Source: a virus
Lineage: Duplodnaviria; Heunggongvirae; Uroviricota; Caudoviricetes
Direction: 5' to 3' (one strand)
Virus record (IMG/VR): IMGVR_UViG_2681813230_000002
Location: 1 to 27,415 of that record
Length of the DNA stretch: 27,415 bases
Part shown: piece by piece, positions 11,125 to 24,283 of the stretch
Layout of the letters: the number at the start of each line of letters is the position of its first letter
Position numbering within the stretch: the first letter of the stretch is position 1
Made by a program: the position numbers and the translations under genes
Notes under the pieces: generated by a model
What the model saw: only the letters and a program-made list of their open reading frames with translations
Database searches by the model: none
What the model was told of the DNA's origin: nothing

Positions 11125-11940
11125 TTATCGTGTTATTTGTTTCAGTTGGTTTTCTGCCCATGCCTCTTCAATATCGAATTTCGTAATCAGCTGATCATAG
11201 AACGGTTTAACGGACTTCTTCCACGTATCCAGGCTGATTACATCCGTAATCTGGCAAATAGCTGCGTGGGCCTCAGTTGAAGGAATGCGTTCATATCCAC
11301 GCCCGCCGCAGCGCTTGCAGTCAGTCATAACCGGCACACCCTGTTTCTTCGTTTCCTTCTGGTCTACGGCTTTCCCACGTCCCCGGCAATCATTGCAGGC
11401 ACAACTGACAACCTTCTTCCCCTTGCAGTTCGAGCACAGCACTCGAACCACCTCTCGAACCTGTCGTTTAACCTCGAAATCACTCGGTGACTGACCAAGC
11501 TCTTTCGCCCATTGAGGAATCCTCATTGAATAATGAGATTTCATTGTGAACACGTCGGCCTCAATAAATCCCTGCCCGCTGCAACAATCACACTGCTTAA
11601 CGCTCGCAGCGCTGCGGGAGTAATCTTCAAAAGCGAAGGTGGCCAACTGGTGCATCACCTTAGGCTTAACCCCGGAATCCAACTTACGCAGTGCGGCAAC
11701 CTTGTCACATTTGGTCATCGCATACTCAGCCAGCAGTCCGATCGCTCGCTCGCGATCGTAATCGCTGATATCCATCTTACCGAGGAATGCACTGAACCCG
11801 AGATCAGCCCGGCTCTGTGTCATTCCGATCGCCGCCATAATGTCAGTGCCGGTTAATGAGTCAGATGCGGTTGCACGTGGAGCGTCGCTAATCATCGTTG
11901 ACTTCGCGAAGTGGTATTTCACTGTGTTTTCGAGATTCAT
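11125..11940 (-). CDS. Q: Late gene antiterminator Q
   Basis: 271 aa with multiple Cys clusters (CDCCSGQG, CSNCKGK, CACNDCRGRG, CKRCGGRG) typical of lambdoid Q proteins; located between nin genes and lysis cassette. Confidence 0.8.
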   Translation of the reverse strand: MNLENTVKYHFAKSTMISDAPRATASDSLTGTDIMAAIGMTQSRADLGFSAFLGKMDISDYDRERAIGLLAEYAMTKCDKVAALRKLDSGVKPKVMHQLATFAFEDYSRSAASVKQCDCCSGQGFIEADVFTMKSHYSMRIPQWAKELGQSPSDFEVKRQVREVVRVLCSNCKGKKVVSCACNDCRGRGKAVDQKETKKQGVPVMTDCKRCGGRGYERIPSTEAHAAICQITDVISLDTWKKSVKPFYDQLITKFDIEEAWAENQLKQITR

Positions 11941-19173: not shown

Positions 19174-19851
19174 ATGGAAAATAAAGAAATCAGAAAAGCC
19201 AACCTGGAAGCGCTGTACGAGAAGCGTCAGCACGAGTCTGGAATGACCAAAGCGCAGTTTGCCGAGCTCATCGAGACAAGTCCGGCTGCGCTTAGCCAGC
19301 TACTGGGACCAAACCCTCATCGCAATATCGGCGATAAGATGGCTCGCAAAATTGAAACTGCGCTTGATCTGCCTTTTGGCTGGATGGATGTTTTACACGC
19401 CAGTGAAGAACCTTCGAACGTTGCATTTCGAGGACTGAACGAGACAAAAGGAAGTTATCCTGTAATCAGCTGGGTAAGCGCGGGGCAATGGATGGAAGCT
19501 GTAGAACCTTATCACCGAAGAGCGATAGATCGCTGGTATGACACGACTGTTGACTGCTCAGAAGATTCATTCTGGCTGGACGTTAAAGGGGATTCTATGA
19601 CCTCTCCGGCTGGACTGAGCATACCCGAGGGAGCAGTGATACTTGTTGATCCTGAAGTCGAGCCGCGCAACGGAAAGCTGGTTGTCGCGAAGCTAGAAGG
19701 CGATAACGAAGCGACCTTTAAGAAGCTTGTAATCGATGCCGGCAGACGCTTCCTAAAGCCCCTTAACCCCGCATATCCAATGCTAGAAATTAATGGAAAC
19801 TGCAAAATCATCGGCGTTGTGGTTGATGCCAAAATACTAAACATCCCATAA
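19174..19851 (+). CDS. cI: CI-type repressor with C-terminal S24 (LexA-like) autopeptidase domain
   Basis: N-terminal HTH region; C-terminal GDSM...FKKL Ser/Lys dyad motifs; start chosen at ATG 19174 (MENKEIRK...), the track ORF begins in the intergenic operator region. Confidence 0.85.
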   Translation: MENKEIRKANLEALYEKRQHESGMTKAQFAELIETSPAALSQLLGPNPHRNIGDKMARKIETALDLPFGWMDVLHASEEPSNVAFRGLNETKGSYPVISWVSAGQWMEAVEPYHRRAIDRWYDTTVDCSEDSFWLDVKGDSMTSPAGLSIPEGAVILVDPEVEPRNGKLVVAKLEGDNEATFKKLVIDAGRRFLKPLNPAYPMLEINGNCKIIGVVVDAKILNIP

Positions 19852-19870
19852 CCTCACGCAAAACCCCTCA

Positions 19871-19896
19871 AGCCCGCCATCGCGCGGGCTTTTTTA
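19871..19896 (+). terminator. Rho-independent terminator after cI
   Basis: AGCCCGC-CATCGC-GCGGGCT 7-bp stem followed by TTTTTT. Confidence 0.65.
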
Positions 19897-19934
19897 CGTC
19901 CCGAATTCCTTCGCTGTAAATTTTTAATCGCTTA

Positions 19935-20011
19935 TTAATCAATACGCTAAATAAAATCATTCAACAATTTAGCATTTTGCTATTGCGCATAATTTAGCAT
20001 CACGCTAAATT
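19935..20011. promoter_or_regulatory. OL-like operator cluster and putative pL promoter
   Basis: TTTAGCATCACGCTAAA (19993-20009) and TTTAGCATTTTGCTATT (19968-19984), plus a weaker site at 19935-19951; same half-sites as OR. Confidence 0.5.
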
Positions 20012-20414
20012 TACCCCATCGAAACGAAACATCGACAGCTGAGCGAAGTTAGCCAGCGGCGGACAGCAAGTCGCCTGCTTTTTAACAACATGCAGATTTA
20101 CAGCGTCAATGACCTGTTAAGACCCCTACACGTAAACGTGCTGTATCACCGGGTGCGATCCGGTCGGTGAGAGAGTATCCCCGCGCGAGAGCGAGAACGG
20201 CGTGAGAACGGGCAACACTGGCAGGGAGTTGGCGCTGACCAATACAGGGAATGTTATGGGATGTGGTGAAGGGTTCATGGACGGGAATATGTCGCACGTA
20301 AAGCGGCGAGGCCCGAGGAGCTATTGCCGAAGATAAGTAGGCCGAATCGGGTCGAAATGGGTCTCCCACCTACCACATCGCCAAAGCATTTCTCCCGCAT
20401 CAGCGGGTAAGTCA

Positions 20415-21083
20415 ATGATTCGTCTTAACAACGAAATTAAAAATCAGCTATGCCATAACCTGCTTCTCGCATCCCCATTGTTTGAGAAAGCGAAAGCTGC
20501 GGTTAATGAGAGGGCGAAAATTGTTGAAGAAATTCGACAGGCATTGCTCAAGCAGGAAAACACTAGCGATGAGCAAATAACTAAGGCTCGGGAAGATTTC
20601 AAAGATAACTCCTTCATCAAGATGCAGGTCGGCGCTAAAACTGCAATTTTAAAGGTCATTATTAATGGTGAGTATCACGAATTAGCCAGGAACGGTTTGG
20701 ATCATCGCTATCGCCACCGTGGAAAACATATTGGTAAGCACGATCTTGAAAGCGACCTGTTCTTCGGAGCTTCCTTCGCGCCTGTAATTGATTCGGGTTT
20801 CGTTCCTGAAAGTTACAGCACGCTGAAGAAAGTTGGAAAATTACACGACCGACTCACTGAATCGACGGTAACCATCAACGTTCTTTACGATGAAGTTGAT
20901 GCCTTCCAATTGCAGGTTAAAGGTGCTCTAACCAAAGTCTCAACTGTTAAAAAACTGGCTGAGATGTGGCCTGAGGCAGTGCCATATTTGCCTGAGGTGG
21001 AACGCCGTGAAGCGACCAGCACCGCACTTGCCATTCCCGTTGAAACGCTAAACGCCCTTTGCGGCATACCAAAGAATGAATGA
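20415..21083 (+). CDS. Hypothetical protein, 222 aa (pL-proximal moron; no family recognised)
   Basis: Clean ORF with lower GC than flanks, preceded by hairpin TCCCGC-ATCA-GCGGGA and a 370-bp ORF-free leader, followed by a strong terminator. Confidence 0.55.
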   Translation: MIRLNNEIKNQLCHNLLLASPLFEKAKAAVNERAKIVEEIRQALLKQENTSDEQITKAREDFKDNSFIKMQVGAKTAILKVIINGEYHELARNGLDHRYRHRGKHIGKHDLESDLFFGASFAPVIDSGFVPESYSTLKKVGKLHDRLTESTVTINVLYDEVDAFQLQVKGALTKVSTVKKLAEMWPEAVPYLPEVERREATSTALAIPVETLNALCGIPKNE

Positions 21084-21105
21084 CCCGCTCCGGCGGGTTT
21101 TTTAT
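21083..21105 (+). terminator. Rho-independent terminator
   Basis: ACCCGC-TCCG-GCGGGT stem followed by TTTTTTAT directly after the stop codon. Confidence 0.7.
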
Positions 21106-21244
21106 CGGCCATACATAGGCAGATTTTCGAGTCTGCCCATTTATGACAACCGGCGGCCATCCACCGCCCATTGAAACACTGAATAAATGCGTTGAAGTCT
21201 TGTATTAACCGTTCCGTTCGCCGCGATAAGGCCAAGAGGAAATC

Positions 21245-21373
21245 ATGGTAAACCAGCAGCAGATCAGAGAGGCCCAACGGCTCGCGTCGTTCGCGGTGCT
21301 CCATCGCAATGCTCCGGCGTGGGAAGAAGCAAAACGCCTTTACGCCGTCGCCATCGGGAGGACTCTTCACTGA
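21245..21373 (+). CDS. Small hypothetical protein (42 aa), not in ORF track
   Basis: Hand translation MVNQQQIREAQRLASFAVLHRNAPAWEEAKRLYAVAIGRTLH; AAGAGGA SD 6 nt upstream; stop overlaps next start (TGATG). Confidence 0.4.
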   Translation: MVNQQQIREAQRLASFAVLHRNAPAWEEAKRLYAVAIGRTLH

Positions 21374-21570
21374 TGGAAACTTTATTCGCACTCGTCCTGA
21401 CCGTGGCAATGACCAACGGTGATTATCAGGATGTCATTCTCGGCGTTTACGACAGCCAGCAGGAATGCAGCCTGGCAGCTACAGAGCAGAAAGTGTCAGC
21501 TGAGTGCTGGCCGGTAGAAAGCATCATCCGCAACGGCGAGTTCCCGGCGAAATCCATCGCGCAGCAGTAA
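21373..21570 (+). CDS. Small hypothetical protein (65 aa) with N-terminal hydrophobic segment
   Basis: METLFALVLTVAMTNG...; coupled to upstream 42-aa ORF; the track start at 21319 is in an Arg-rich leader and probably not used. Confidence 0.45.
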   Translation: METLFALVLTVAMTNGDYQDVILGVYDSQQECSLAATEQKVSAECWPVESIIRNGEFPAKSIAQQ

Positions 21571-21640
21571 CCACCCTATTCAACCGATCGGCCTGGCATT
21601 ACGCGGGCGGGATCTGCACATCCAAATTTCAGGAGAAACC

Positions 21641-22612
21641 ATGAGCGAAGTAACGGACTTAACTGTCATCGAAATCAAGCCGGAACAGGCCCCAGTGCTT
21701 TACGTAGCGGGCGGCCTTGACGCGTACCTTGAGCAAATCCGCCAGGCTGTAAACGAAGTGCCGGACCTGTCCACGAAGAAAGGCCGTGACCGTGTTGCCT
21801 CTCTGGCAGCGCAGGTGTCCCGCAGCAAGACGGCAATCGAAAAGCCGGGCCGTGAGTACCTGAAGCGCCTGAAAGAGGCTGTGCGTCCGGCTGAGGCCGA
21901 AATTAAGCGATTCGTTGATGCCTGCGACGAGCTGCGCGATGCGACCCGCCGCCCACTCACCGAATGGGAAGCCGAGCAGGAACGCATTAAGGCTGAAGAA
22001 GCCATGAACGCGATGCACGCCGAAGCGCTGGAGATGAACATCAGGTTCGATCAGGAGCTGGCTGCCAAGTTCGAAGCGGACCACGAAATGGCTCTACTGA
22101 TGAACAAGGATTTTGACCGTGACCGCGAAGAGCAGCGCCGTCTGGCGGAACAGGCTCAGCGTGAACGTGATGAGCGGCTGAAACAGGAAGCGGCAGAACA
22201 AGCCCGCCGCGATGCCGAAGCGAAGCACAAAGCGGAGATTGAAGCCGCAGCGCGCCGTGAAGCCGAAGAGAAAGCCCGCGCTGAACTGGCGGAGCGCCAG
22301 CGCGTCGAAGCGGAACAGCGTGCAGCTCGCGAGAAGCAGGAAGCGGAAGCCCGGGCGGAACGCGAAAAAGCCGCGGCGGTTGAAGCCGAGCGCCTGAAGG
22401 CCAAACAGGCCGAAGATGCCCGCCTGGCCGAAGAGAAGCGCCTCGCCGATGAGCAGGCAAAGCGTGAAGCTGACGTTAAGCACCGCAAGACGGTCGGCAC
22501 CAACATCGTTAACGCGCTCACCAGCCAAACCAGCTTAACCCGCGAGCAGGCTATCGAAGTGCTTACCGCTCTGAAAGATAACCTGATCCCCTGCGCGAAA
22601 ATTCATTACTGA
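21641..22612 (+). CDS. Hypothetical protein with long Glu/Arg/Ala/Lys-rich low-complexity coiled-coil centre
   Basis: 323 aa; globular N- and C-terminal segments flank about 150 aa of EAxxR-type repeats; sits just upstream of gam-bet-exo. Confidence 0.6.
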   Translation: MSEVTDLTVIEIKPEQAPVLYVAGGLDAYLEQIRQAVNEVPDLSTKKGRDRVASLAAQVSRSKTAIEKPGREYLKRLKEAVRPAEAEIKRFVDACDELRDATRRPLTEWEAEQERIKAEEAMNAMHAEALEMNIRFDQELAAKFEADHEMALLMNKDFDRDREEQRRLAEQAQRERDERLKQEAAEQARRDAEAKHKAEIEAAARREAEEKARAELAERQRVEAEQRAAREKQEAEARAEREKAAAVEAERLKAKQAEDARLAEEKRLADEQAKREADVKHRKTVGTNIVNALTSQTSLTREQAIEVLTALKDNLIPCAKIHY

Positions 22613-22619
22613 GGCAACC

Positions 22620-22904
22620 ATGAACGCATACCTCACTTACGACCGCATCGAAGATCGGCGCTGGGCTGAGCAGCAGATCACCGACGAGAAAGAGAAGTGG
22701 ATCGACGACCGGGCGCAGAAAATCATCGACATGATGCCTAAAGAGCCGTCCGGCCTCTTCCACTTCACGATCCCGATAGACTCCAGCCCATACGAAGGGC
22801 TTCGCAGCGATAAAGCTGGCGAGGCCTACAACGATTTCATTTCGGTAGTTGCTTACGCCCAGGCGGAATACGACTGGGAACACCGTACCGGCTGCCCGTT
22901 TTAA
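22620..22904 (+). CDS. gam: Host-nuclease (RecBCD) inhibitor Gam
   Basis: N-terminus MNAYLTYDRIEDRRWAEQQ resembles lambda GamS start [21 protein letters not shown]; positioned directly upstream of bet. Confidence 0.75.
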   Translation: MNAYLTYDRIEDRRWAEQQITDEKEKWIDDRAQKIIDMMPKEPSGLFHFTIPIDSSPYEGLRSDKAGEAYNDFISVVAYAQAEYDWEHRTGCPF

Positions 22905-22922
22905 TTTTTGAGGGATTTAACA

Positions 22923-23669
22923 ATGAGTACTGCACTTTCCACCATGGCCGGGAAACTGGCCGCACGCCTCGGCATGGATGCCGGTACAGACCTGATGAAT
23001 ACGCTGAAGAATACAGCGTTCAAAGGTGGCAACGTCACGGACGAGCAGTTTACAGCCCTGTTGATCGTCGCCAACCAGTACGGCCTGAACCCATGGACCA
23101 AAGAGATTTACGCATTCCCAGATAAAGGCGGGATTGTCCCGGTCGTCGGCGTTGATGGATGGGCTCGCATTATCAACGAGCATCCTCAGTTTGACGGCAT
23201 GGAGTTCTCTTACGACAAGGAGGAAGGCGCGTGTACCTGCAAGATTTACCGCAAAGACCGTAAGCACCCGACCATCGTCACCGAGTACATGGGAGAGTGC
23301 AAACGCAACACTCAGCCATGGCAGTCCCACCCTACCCGCATGCTTCGCCACAAGACGCTGATCCAGTGCGCGCGTCTGGCCTTTGGTTTCGCTGGCATCT
23401 TCGACCAGGACGAGGCAGAGCGAGTAATTGAAGGAACAACGGCAGAGGTTCATGCGGGCCATGAATCAGATAGCCGCCGCCCGGAACTGATCGCAAAAGG
23501 TGAGTCCGCCGCGCGCCTTGGAACCGTTAAGTATCAGGAGTTCTGGGTGGCTCTGAGCGCCGAAGAGAAACAGGTGATCGGCGCAGTTGAGAAACGACGC
23601 ATGTATGACATGAGTCTTGCTGTCGACAACGCCGAACCTGTCAATGTCGCAGAGACGGAGGCTGAATGA
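22923..23669 (+). CDS. bet: Recombination protein Bet (Red-beta single-strand annealing protein)
   Basis: Near-collinear with recalled lambda Bet (MSTALATLAGKLAERVGMD...LIVANQYGLNPWTKEIYAFPDK...GIVPVVGVDGW...MLRHK..IQCARLAFGFAGI); start at ATG 22923 with GAGGGA SD. Confidence 0.9.
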   Translation: MSTALSTMAGKLAARLGMDAGTDLMNTLKNTAFKGGNVTDEQFTALLIVANQYGLNPWTKEIYAFPDKGGIVPVVGVDGWARIINEHPQFDGMEFSYDKEEGACTCKIYRKDRKHPTIVTEYMGECKRNTQPWQSHPTRMLRHKTLIQCARLAFGFAGIFDQDEAERVIEGTTAEVHAGHESDSRRPELIAKGESAARLGTVKYQEFWVALSAEEKQVIGAVEKRRMYDMSLAVDNAEPVNVAETEAE

Positions 23670-24283
23670 TAGAGCAACGCACCCCTGAATGGTTTGCTGC
23701 GCGCTGCAGCAAGGTCACAGCCAGTCGCCTGGCTGATGTCATGGCCCGGACTAAGTCGGGCTACTCCACCAGCCGCCAGAACTACATGGCCGAGCTGATT
23801 TGCCAACGGCTGACCGGGAAGCTGGAGGAAGGGTTTTCGAATGCCGCGATGATGCGCGGCACTGAACTTGAGCCAGTGGCACGCGAAATGTACGCGCTGA
23901 ATGAGTTCAATGCGGCAATCACTGAAGTTGGGCTCATCGATCACCCAACCATACCCGGATTCGCAGCCAGCCCGGACGGACTTGTCAACGACGACGGGCT
24001 TATCGAAATCAAATGCCCCAACACCTGGACCCATCTTGAAACGCTGAAAACTGGTGAGCCAAAGCGCCAGTACATGCTGCAAATGCATGCACAGATGATG
24101 TGCACCGGGCGGAAATGGTGTGATTTCGTTAGTTTCGATGATCGCCTGCCGCCTGACCTCGCCTATTTCAAGAAGCGGATTCATTTCGATGAAGAGCTGG
24201 CGCGCGAAATCGAATCTGAGGTTAAGAGCTTCCTTGCAGATCTGGAATCGGAAATTCAGAAAATCACAGAGCGTGCAGCATGA
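23666..24283 (+). CDS. exo: YqaJ-type viral exonuclease (Red-alpha/Exo analogue)
   Basis: 205 aa; motifs QRTPEWFAAR, SPDGLV and IEIKCP typical of YqaJ/lambda-exonuclease fold; ATGA coupling with bet. Confidence 0.8.
   Translation: MIEQRTPEWFAARCSKVTASRLADVMARTKSGYSTSRQNYMAELICQRLTGKLEEGFSNAAMMRGTELEPVAREMYALNEFNAAITEVGLIDHPTIPGFAASPDGLVNDDGLIEIKCPNTWTHLETLKTGEPKRQYMLQMHAQMMCTGRKWCDFVSFDDRLPPDLAYFKKRIHFDEELAREIESEVKSFLADLESEIQKITERAA

What the first reader, a model, noticed from the sequence alone, without database searches (positions are those of the whole stretch)
20012..21640. No recognisable N-type antiterminator between pL and the Red genes
Lambda-like early-left operons begin with a small Arg-rich N protein and nutL (boxA CGCTCTTA plus boxB hairpin). 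I could find neither an N-like ORF nor a boxA/boxB pair by eye. Instead the first gene is followed by intrinsic terminators before gam-bet-exo. Antitermination could be RNA-based (HK022 put-like), carried out by one of the small ORFs (42 aa, 65 aa), or absent.
Basis: inference. Interest (0 to 1): 0.55.

Follow-up and report, generated by a model that had tools for sequence, protein, structure and literature searches.

The report
N-less phage leader with conserved RNA
This prophage has lost the usual N antiterminator gene but keeps, just after its early-left promoter, a Nus-factor binding site (boxA) followed by a conserved folded RNA that sits where other lambda-like phages have their N-binding hairpin, so read-through of the downstream terminator is probably RNA-based.

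Summary
It was wrong that there is no nut-like signal.

The 400-nt pL leader (20011-20414) is 100% identical to the phage phi80 pL-to-N leader. GenBank marks that phi80 region as the 'nutL regulatory signal'.

The leader contains:
- an rrn-type boxA (TGCTTTTTAACAA, 20076-20088);
- a 133-nt multi-helix RNA, 'domain A' (20103-20235), supported by covariation;
- a long hairpin, 'domain B' (20249-20391), which is the counterpart of the lambda N-leader hairpin.

phi80's 'N' gene is replaced here by an Nmad5 cassette that carries its own terminator.

Across about 200 phage loci, domain A occurs once per phage, always in the pL leader. It is followed by a hypervariable first gene and then by sense-strand terminators. 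It almost never co-occurs with Arg-rich N proteins (0/13 against 92/101 among domain-B loci).

Most likely, domain A plus boxA is a cis-acting antitermination RNA that works with host Nus factors and no phage N protein. This is inferred, not shown. The rivals are an orphaned N-dependent site and a leader RNA with another function. The family is not in Rfam and is not annotated in genomes.

The parts
20006..20011 (+). pL -10 element (TAAATT); the transcript starts about 20017-20019
   Evidence: Aligns with the annotated pL -10 of phi80 (L001 2996-3001) and with the HK225 promoter. The position is inferred by homology.
20016..20061 (+). First ~46 nt of the pL transcript, a module shared with phage HK639, which uses a put-like RNA
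   Evidence: 95.7% identity to HK639 directly after its putative pL and before its putL-like RNA.
20055..20079 (+). Hairpin directly upstream of boxA that overlaps its first bases (rrn-like boxB-boxA order; terminator-like with a U run)
   Evidence: dG -9.9 kcal/mol; listed by the terminator scan. Homologues have different sequences that also form a hairpin before boxA (seen by eye; not tested statistically).
20076..20088 (+). rrn-type boxA, TGCTTTTTAACAA (presumed NusB-NusE binding site)
   Evidence: Only site in the window. Columns are at least 90% conserved in 78 distinct homologues. Perfect TGCTCTTTAACAA in PA2 and P13771. Annotated 'nutL boxA' in phi80.
20103..20235 (+). Domain A, a conserved multi-helix RNA. 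P1 20103-20110:20228-20235; P2 20114-20118:20220-20224; P3 20124-20126:20210-20212; P4 hairpin 20129-20140; P5 hairpin 20146-20170; P6 variable hairpin about 20182-20204
   Evidence: RNAalifold consensus. Covariation: 12 of 32 pairs compensatory against 5.0 +/- 1.4 in shuffles, and 2-5 in slid controls. Repeated on a second subfamily: 14 of 32 against 7.8 +/- 1.2. Covariance model gives 222 bits, one copy per phage. Coordinates.
20249..20391 (+). Domain B, a long irregular hairpin; counterpart of the lambda N-leader hairpin (boxC-like GGGAUGUGGUG at its 5' base)
   Evidence: Shares the basal-stem sequences with the lambda N leader and occupies the same place between the nut region and the first start codon. 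In 92 of 101 loci without domain A it is followed 54-60 nt later by an ARM-type N gene. Covariation in the basal stem.
20415..21083 (+). First pL gene, an Nmad5-family protein (222 aa), in the slot where phi80 has its 98-aa 'N'
   Evidence: Pfam PF18757, E = 1e-30. The alignment with phi80 shows the swap runs from just before the start codon to the terminator. The slot is hypervariable in homologues.
21082..21105 (+). Intrinsic terminator tL1 of the cassette
   Evidence: 7-bp stem, dG -14, U6.
21139..21240 (+). Segment again identical to phi80; part of it is annotated there as the Rho-dependent terminator tL1B
   Evidence: Alignment; phi80 feature table.
21245..21570 (+). 42-aa ORF (21245-21373) overlapping the start of DUF1482 (21373-21570); not antiterminator candidates
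   Evidence: Substitutions are synonymous in the 42-aa frame. DUF1482 Pfam E = 2.5e-24. Both lie downstream of tL1.
21641..24283 (+). Distal pL genes that need read-through: 323-aa protein, gamL, bet, exo
   Evidence: PHROGs and PGAP names.

Best explanation
The region is a phi80-type early-left leader in which the protein gene at the N position has been exchanged for an accessory cassette (Nmad5 plus its own terminator). The RNA signal has been kept.

From 5' to 3' the leader has the layout of a nut region:
- boxA;
- then a 133-nt multi-helix RNA (domain A) where lambda and P22 have the 15-nt boxB hairpin;
- then the N-leader hairpin (domain B).

Proposed mechanism. As RNA polymerase leaves pL, host NusB-NusE bind the strong rrn-type boxA. 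The folded domain A, held on the nascent transcript, takes the part that N bound to boxB plays in lambda. It stabilises a Nus-factor-modified, termination-resistant elongation complex. That complex reads through tL1 (21082-21105) and the Rho-dependent site behind it, and reaches gam-bet-exo.

Shown: the RNA exists, it is structurally constrained, it is always in this position, and it excludes N-type genes.

Inferred: that it causes antitermination, and that it does so without a phage protein.
For: 1. The leader is identical to phi80's. The depositors of M11919 marked 661-938 (= window 20039-20316, spanning boxA and domain A) as the nutL regulatory signal.
2. Domain A is a real structured RNA: 98.5% of cells are paired; 12 of 32 pairs are compensatory with 0 of 500 shuffles reaching that; slid controls give 2-5. 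A second subfamily collected with a different pattern gives 14 of 32.
3. boxA is nearly invariant 12-17 nt upstream of P1.
4. There is one copy per phage, in the pL leader, in phi80, PA2, P13771, Edno5, HK225 and this window.
5. Positional replacement. Among loci with domain B, an ARM-type N gene follows in 0 of 13 with domain A upstream and in 92 of 101 without (Fisher p = 1e-11). Most of the latter carry a lambda-type or P22-type boxB instead.
6. Of 136 domain-A loci, 2 have an ARM-type N within 4 kb and 8 have phi80 N. In the second subfamily the counts are 3 and 1 of 69.
7. No downstream ORF is shared by all loci, and the first gene is hypervariable.
8. Isolated, sequenced phages (HK225; Oslovirus Stx2a phages PA2 and P13771) carry domain A and, in the pL-region loci examined, no phi80 N or ARM-type N.
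9. Terminators are systematic downstream of domain A: 85 sense against 16 antisense, and at least one lies before Kil or GamL in 59 of 73 loci.
10. NusB binds rrn BoxA much more tightly than lambda nutL BoxA (130 against 2200 nM; PMC2800207).
Against: - No functional test exists for this window, and antitermination is inferred from position only.
- phi80 N is found only together with domain A (6 of 6 among domain-B loci). The old 'nutL' label implies N-dependent read-through in phi80. I could not read the 1985 paper, but if it holds, domain A may need a protein partner.
- N-like proteins are small and diverge fast, so unrecognised analogues may escape similarity searches. One example is the 70-aa basic protein after domain A in HK225.
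- Edwardsiella-type phages have both domain A and an ARM-type N, so the two are not strictly exclusive.
- Loci were collected with exact core patterns and many are closely related, so counts and the Fisher test overstate independence.
- The MFE z-score of the single sequence is modest (-2.3).
Confidence: 0.45

Rival explanations
1. Orphaned N-dependent nut site. Domain A is the recognition RNA for phi80 N or an analogue. This prophage lost N when the Nmad5 cassette replaced it. Transcription then mostly stops at tL1, and the distal pL genes depend on leak-through or on N supplied by a co-resident phi80-like phage.
For: - phi80 N occurs only with domain A upstream.
- GenBank calls the region an N-utilisation signal.
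- Domain B, which normally precedes N genes, precedes phi80 N too.
Against: - About 93% of domain-A loci lack phi80 N and any ARM-type N. These include the isolated phages HK225, PA2 and P13771.
- The Nmad5 arrangement recurs at 97-99.7% identity in E. coli from pig, pork, cat, goose, cattle and human, which does not look like a dead end.
- RNA structure is conserved by compensatory change across lineages without N.
Confidence: 0.2
2. Domain A is a leader RNA with a different job, such as mRNA stabilisation or processing, translational control of the first gene, ligand sensing, or a decoy. boxA merely protects the long untranslated leader from Rho. tL1 is passed by ordinary leakiness or not at all.
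For: - The leader is about 400 nt and untranslated, which invites Rho termination.
- Domain B corresponds to the lambda N-leader hairpin, which in lambda is an RNase III and translation-control element (my knowledge of the lambda literature).
- Edwardsiella-type phages carry both domain A and an N, which would be redundant if A alone sufficed.
Against: - Domain A occupies the boxB position between boxA and the N-leader hairpin.
- It is strongly anti-correlated with boxB plus N.
- The gene immediately downstream changes freely, which argues against gene-specific control.
- No terminator or start codon overlaps the 3' strand of P1, as a riboswitch expression platform would require (seen directly in the sequence).
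- Sense terminators accumulate downstream.
Confidence: 0.22
3. A protein encoded in the window is the antiterminator: Nmad5, the 42-aa protein, DUF1482 or another early protein.
For: - Nmad5 is the only gene transcribed before tL1.
- Its function is unknown. In Dhillonvirus phages it is described as a predicted DNA-modification gene linked to Tmn sensing (PMC11846954).
Against: - Nmad5 is one of dozens of alternative cassettes in this slot.
- It also occurs in virulent phages near capsid genes.
- The 42-aa ORF and DUF1482 lie after the terminator and accompany domain A in only 9-10 of 92 loci.
- The Arg-rich frame at 21319 is not the conserved frame.
Confidence: 0.06

Closest known systems
Phage phi80 nutL region (Tanaka and Matsushiro 1985 entry M11919; phi80 genome JX871397)
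   Same: Window 20011-20414 is identical in sequence to the phi80 pL-to-N leader. It includes the stretch annotated as the nutL signal, 'nutL boxA' and 'nutL core'.
   Different: phi80's 98-aa 'N' gene is absent and replaced by Nmad5. The records describe only a boxA and a short 'core' hairpin (P4), not a multi-helix RNA family.
Lambda / P22 / 933W N-nut antitermination
   Same: Same place in the genome (start of the pL operon). Same order: boxA, RNA element, boxC-like N-leader hairpin, first gene, terminator. A boxA is present.
   Different: No ARM-type N protein and no 15-nt boxB. The RNA element is about nine times larger. There is no second site in the pR operon. boxA is of the tight-binding rrn type.
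HK022 and HK639 put antiterminator RNAs
   Same: Lambdoid phages without N. A cis-acting RNA lies just downstream of pL, ahead of terminators. The first 46 nt of the transcript are shared with HK639.
   Different: No sequence similarity to the HK639 putL-like RNA. put is a roughly 70-nt pair of stem-loops, present as putL and putR, and needs no dedicated protein factor (PMC9378689). Here there is a boxA, a multi-helix junction and a single copy.
E. coli rrn operon antitermination signal (boxB-boxA-boxC)
   Same: Near-consensus rrn boxA preceded by a hairpin. No phage protein would be needed.
   Different: The large domain A has no counterpart in rrn leaders. To my knowledge rrn antitermination acts mainly on Rho-dependent terminators, whereas tL1 is intrinsic.

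Membership tests
Lambda-type N/nut system | Small Arg-rich (ARM) N protein encoded as the first pL gene | tested here: not met
   Pfam and PHROGs scans. tblastn with 41 ARM-type N proteins gives best E = 0.065.
Lambda-type N/nut system | boxA upstream of the RNA hairpin | tested here: met
   TGCTTTTTAACAA at 20076-20088, conserved in homologues.
Lambda-type N/nut system | boxB: 15-nt hairpin with a purine-rich pentaloop a few nt after boxA | tested here: not met
   No P22-type or lambda-type boxB. The P4 hairpin is 4 bp with a variable UAAA / AAAA / CAAA / AGAAA loop, 40 nt after boxA.
Lambda-type N/nut system | A second nut site in the pR operon | tested here: not met
   No second boxA. No second covariance-model hit in the window or in the phi80 pR region.
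Lambda-type N/nut system | N-leader hairpin between the nut site and the first start codon | tested here: met
   Domain B aligns with the lambda and HK106 N leaders and precedes N genes of several types.
phi80 nutL | Sequence identity with the region annotated as the nutL signal | tested here: met
   100% identity over window 20011-20411; M11919 feature 661-938.
phi80 nutL | Cognate phi80 N protein present | tested here: not met
   tblastn of phi80 N finds 8 of 128 loci, not the window.
HK022-type put RNA | Sequence or structure similarity to put (two stem-loops of about 70 nt) | tested here: not met
   No similarity to the HK639 putL-like RNA. The structure is a multi-helix junction. HK022 put itself was not compared.
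HK022-type put RNA | Acts without Nus factors by binding the RNA polymerase beta-prime zinc-binding domain | not testable with these tools
   Needs genetics or biochemistry. The conserved boxA argues for Nus involvement.
rrn-type antitermination signal | Consensus boxA TGCTCTTTAACAA preceded by a hairpin | tested here: met
   12 of 13 here, 13 of 13 in PA2 and P13771. Upstream hairpin dG -9.9.
rrn-type antitermination signal | Dependence on NusB, NusE, SuhB and S4 | not testable with these tools
   Requires host mutants or in vitro assembly.
Any Rfam family | Covariance-model score at or above the gathering threshold | tested here: not met
   No hit in the whole window. Only weak chance-level hits at E up to 10 in 19800-21700.

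The most novel reading that the evidence does not exclude
boxA plus domain A is a third kind of protein-independent processive antiterminator RNA, after put and EAR. On this reading it hijacks the host Nus machinery through an rrn-strength boxA and replaces both N and boxB. It would be used by a large group of lambdoid phages of Enterobacterales, including phi80 relatives, HK225 and the Oslovirus Stx2a phages. phi80 'N' would then be an accessory or modulatory cassette protein rather than the essential antiterminator.
Probability: 0.35. Interest if true: 0.8.

Novelty: new variant of a known kind. Interest (0 to 1): 0.62.

Why it matters
Early antitermination is the textbook switch of lambdoid phage development. 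Only two solutions are known: the N protein with nut RNA, and the put RNA alone.

Specialists still note N-less lambdoid phages as unexplained and guess at put (PMC12315714).

This leader points to a concrete, testable third solution. It is a conserved RNA of about 160 nt with a strong Nus-binding boxA. It is present in 224 of 5426 complete E. coli genomes, including the phi80 remnant of DH5alpha, and in Shiga-toxin phages. It is nowhere annotated.

It also shows that the slot behind it is a hot spot for accessory-gene cassettes that bring their own terminators. That arrangement only works if the leader makes polymerase terminator-proof.

Tried and rejected
- **Rfam.** Whole window at gathering thresholds, and 19800-21700 at E up to 10. 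Nothing credible: Trp leader and isrK hits are just terminators, and the fluoride hit is on the wrong strand and below threshold.
- **put-like RNA.** No similarity to the HK639 putL-like RNA.
- **Hidden N gene.** Pfam, PHROGs and tblastn with 43 query proteins found none.
- **Arg-rich frame GRSKTPLRRRHRED (GTG 21319) fused to DUF1482.** Rejected, because substitutions among homologues are synonymous in the overlapping 42-aa frame instead.
- **Peptide coded inside the leader.**
  - The 44-aa ORF 20202-20336 occurs in 17 of 92 loci only.
  - The 26-codon ORF at 20090 has no ATG in PA2 or in the second subfamily.
- **A protein that always accompanies domain A.** None found: Kil 63 of 92, GamL 48 of 92, and everything else rarer.
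- **Similarity between Nmad5 and the first genes of PA2 or P13771.** None. Those are Rha / ORF6N antirepressor-type proteins.
- **A nutR-like second copy.** None.
- **Representative-genome scan.** Beyond Enterobacter, Kluyvera and Escherichia it gave only GC-rich chance hits.
- **Literature.** Searches for phi80 nutL, N-less lambdoids and boxA leader RNAs found no description of this RNA. The phi80 genome paper (PMC3510586) is not held. The 1985 nutL paper did not turn up in any search.

Full report
**Layout**

The + strand of the window from about 19900 is the early-left operon of a lambdoid prophage.
- The LexA-type repressor (19177-19851) ends with a terminator (19870-19897).
- Operators and pL follow.
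- After a roughly 400-nt untranslated leader come Nmad5 (20415-21083), a terminator, a 42-aa ORF, DUF1482, a 323-aa protein, gamL, bet, exo, a Dam methylase and the integration genes.
- cro, a YdaT-type cII, the replication genes and a Q-type late antiterminator (11125-11940) lie on the other strand.

**Check of the observation**

No N-type protein is encoded.
- Family scans find none.
- tblastn of 41 Arg-rich N proteins collected from related phages, phi80 N and the HK225 70-aa protein gives no hit better than E = 0.065.
- No lambda-type or P22-type boxB exists.

The terminator after the first gene is real: 21082-21105, dG -14 kcal/mol, U6.

A boxA does exist, however. TGCTTTTTAACAA at 20076-20088 is one mismatch from the rrn boxA.

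**Identity of the leader**

- Window 20011-20411 is base-for-base identical to the phi80 leader between pL and the gene called N.
- The sequences diverge just before the start codon.
- They become identical again about 35 nt after the terminator (window 21139-21240).
- So phi80's 98-aa gene has been exchanged for Nmad5 plus its own terminator.
- The phi80 genome record labels window 20076-20084 'nutL boxA' and 20129-20140 'nutL core'.
- The original 1985 entry labels 661-938, equal to window 20039-20316, 'nutL regulatory signal'.

**The leader is mosaic**

Its pieces are shared with different phages.
- 20016-20061 is shared with HK639, just after its pL and before its put-like RNA.
- 20076-20263 is shared with Oslovirus Stx2a phages such as PA2 and P13771. 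There it lies in an unannotated gap ahead of Rha/antirepressor genes.
- 20257-20386 is shared with 933W, HK106 and mEp234-type phages, directly upstream of their N genes.

The single-sequence fold gives two domains whose borders match these mosaic borders.

**Domain A**

- I collected homologues with an exact core pattern from viral contigs (119 loci) and from representative genomes. In the latter, only Enterobacter, Kluyvera and Escherichia were real hits.
- Seventy-eight distinct sequences align well.
- The consensus fold has six helices around a multi-way junction.
- 98.5% of cells pair. Twelve of 32 pairs show compensatory changes, against 5.0 +/- 1.4 in column shuffles (0 of 500 reach it) and 2-5 when partners are slid.
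- A second subfamily was found with a different pattern from the boxA-P1 region (89 loci). Most of these lack the first pattern (15 of 76 distinct sequences have it).
- The covariance model recognises the second subfamily at 122-157 bits. It again shows covariation: 14 of 32 pairs, and 103 cells against 40.6 +/- 4.1.
- This includes A-U to G-C exchanges in the otherwise invariant P5 (seen by eye).
- boxA is nearly invariant 12-17 nt upstream of P1.
- Candidate peptides in the region are not conserved.
- The model finds one copy per phage. There is none in the pR operon of this window or of phi80.

**Domain B**

- A scan with its core returned 111 usable loci.
- In 92 of the 101 without domain A upstream, an Arg-rich N gene starts 54-60 nt later. 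These N genes are of HK106/933W, lambda, P22 and other types.
- Most of these loci carry a lambda-type or P22-type boxB just upstream.
- Alignment with lambda shows that domain B replaces the interior of the lambda N-leader hairpin. It keeps the same basal stem, CUUUGGGGUGUG ... CACACCACCAAAG.
- The base of the stem covaries.
- In lambda this hairpin contains boxC and the RNase III site that controls N translation (my knowledge of the lambda literature).
- Domain B is therefore an ordinary N-leader element that has stayed behind in front of a non-N gene.

**What replaces what**

The order in lambda is boxA, boxB, N-leader hairpin, N. Here it is boxA, domain A, N-leader hairpin, Nmad5.
- Among domain-B loci, those with domain A never have an Arg-rich N (0 of 13). 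The others nearly always do (92 of 101; Fisher p = 1e-11, not corrected for relatedness).
- Of 136 domain-A loci, 2 (Edwardsiella-phage type) have an Arg-rich N within 4 kb and 8 have phi80 N.
- In the second subfamily the counts are 3 and 1 of 69, and 8 of 69 have the HK225-type 70-aa basic protein.
- The first gene after the leader differs in almost every lineage: phi80 N, Nmad5, Rha, HNH, zinc-binding proteins and many unknowns.
- No ORF is common to all loci.
- Sense-strand intrinsic terminators are frequent downstream: 85 against 16 antisense. At least one lies before Kil or GamL in 59 of 73 loci.
- The isolated phage HK225 has domain A and no recognisable N in the locus examined.

**Interpretation**

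The simplest reading is that boxA plus domain A is the cis-acting signal that makes pL transcription terminator-resistant, and that in most carriers, this prophage included, it works without a dedicated phage protein.
- The rrn-type boxA should bind NusB-NusE far more tightly than lambda's. NusB alone binds at 130 against 2200 nM (PMC2800207).
- A single pL copy is enough because the right operon here has no gap for a terminator between cro and the cII-like gene.

The mechanism is an inference. The main counter-argument is phi80 N, which occurs only with domain A and gave the site its name.

I therefore put about 0.45 on RNA-only, Nus-assisted antitermination. I put 0.2 on an orphaned N-dependent site, about 0.2 on a different leader function, and little on a protein of this window.

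**Novelty**

- The sequence was seen in 1985 and labelled nutL.
- I found no description of it as a conserved structured RNA family in Rfam, in genome annotation (no feature is annotated under any of the listed matches among 224 E. coli genomes), or in the searchable literature.
- The same holds for its distribution mostly without N.

**Limits**

- Homologues were gathered with exact patterns and are mostly from Enterobacterales.
- Many loci are closely related.
- Viral contigs include predicted prophages.
- Fast-evolving N analogues can escape similarity searches.
- I could not read the primary phi80 papers.

Noticed in passing
window 20415-21105, and the same slot in L001-L357: The position between the conserved leader and the conserved post-terminator segment is a cassette slot. 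Dozens of unrelated first genes occupy it (phi80 N, Nmad5, Rha/antirepressor, HNH, ECs_2282 zinc-binding, DUF551 and unknowns), and the window's Nmad5 cassette carries a terminator different from phi80's. It looks like a hot spot for accessory or counter-defence genes.
   Followed up: partly
window 20016-20061; L004 2501-2546: The first 46 nt of the pL transcript are 96% identical to those of HK639, a phage that uses a put-like RNA, although the antiterminator RNAs that follow are unrelated. The stretch contains a -10-like AAACAT about 12-18 nt after the start. That could be a sigma-dependent pause of the kind proposed to help put folding (PMC9378689).
   Followed up: no
window 20055-20085: A hairpin (dG -9.9) pairs with the first bases of boxA and is followed by UUUUU, so it looks like a weak terminator or a structure that could occlude boxA. 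Homologues have other sequences that also form a hairpin before boxA.
   Followed up: partly
window 21245-21375: The 42-aa ORF is a real gene by substitution pattern (changes are synonymous in its frame). Its stop overlaps the DUF1482 start (TGATG). The Arg-rich N-like peptide in the DUF1482 frame upstream of its ATG is an artefact.
   Followed up: yes
L001 3418-3714 (phi80 'N'): phi80 N has no lambda-type N-terminal Arg-rich motif that I could see in its translation, no Pfam family, and a PHROG of unknown function. It occurs in only about 6% of domain-A loci, always with domain A. Its status as a true antiterminator deserves re-examination.
   Followed up: partly
L284 1798-2010 (HK225); L020 and others: A 70-aa protein with a basic stretch (LPKKRQKPRKQAIKEAQ) follows domain A and an extra hairpin in HK225 and 8 of 69 second-subfamily loci. 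It is a possible unrecognised N analogue.
   Followed up: partly
L006 3909-4583 (phage P13771 ORF26): This ORF is annotated 'antitermination' in GenBank but is an ORF6N/antirepressor-type protein by Pfam and PHROGs. The annotation is probably wrong.
   Followed up: yes
window 20219-20226 versus L005 1968-1982: The 3' strand of P1 (GGCGCTGAC) matches the 5' half of the P22-type boxB (GCGCTGACAAAGCGC) that sits at the equivalent place in HK106. It may be a recombination junction between the two kinds of leader.
   Followed up: no
window 21508-21570, minus strand: Weak fluoride-riboswitch match (19.4 bits, gathering score 34, E = 0.021) inside the DUF1482 gene on the antisense strand. Most likely chance.
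   Followed up: no
window 19930-20010: The operator region holds several copies of a TTAGCA / TGCTAA-type inverted motif. This immunity differs from phi80's although the transcribed leader is identical from the -10 onward.
   Followed up: no
H91, NZ_CP025520.1 126794-126964 (E. coli DH5alpha): Domain A is present at 100% identity in DH5alpha and other laboratory strains, presumably in the phi80dlacZ remnant. Material for experiments is already in most laboratories.
   Followed up: no
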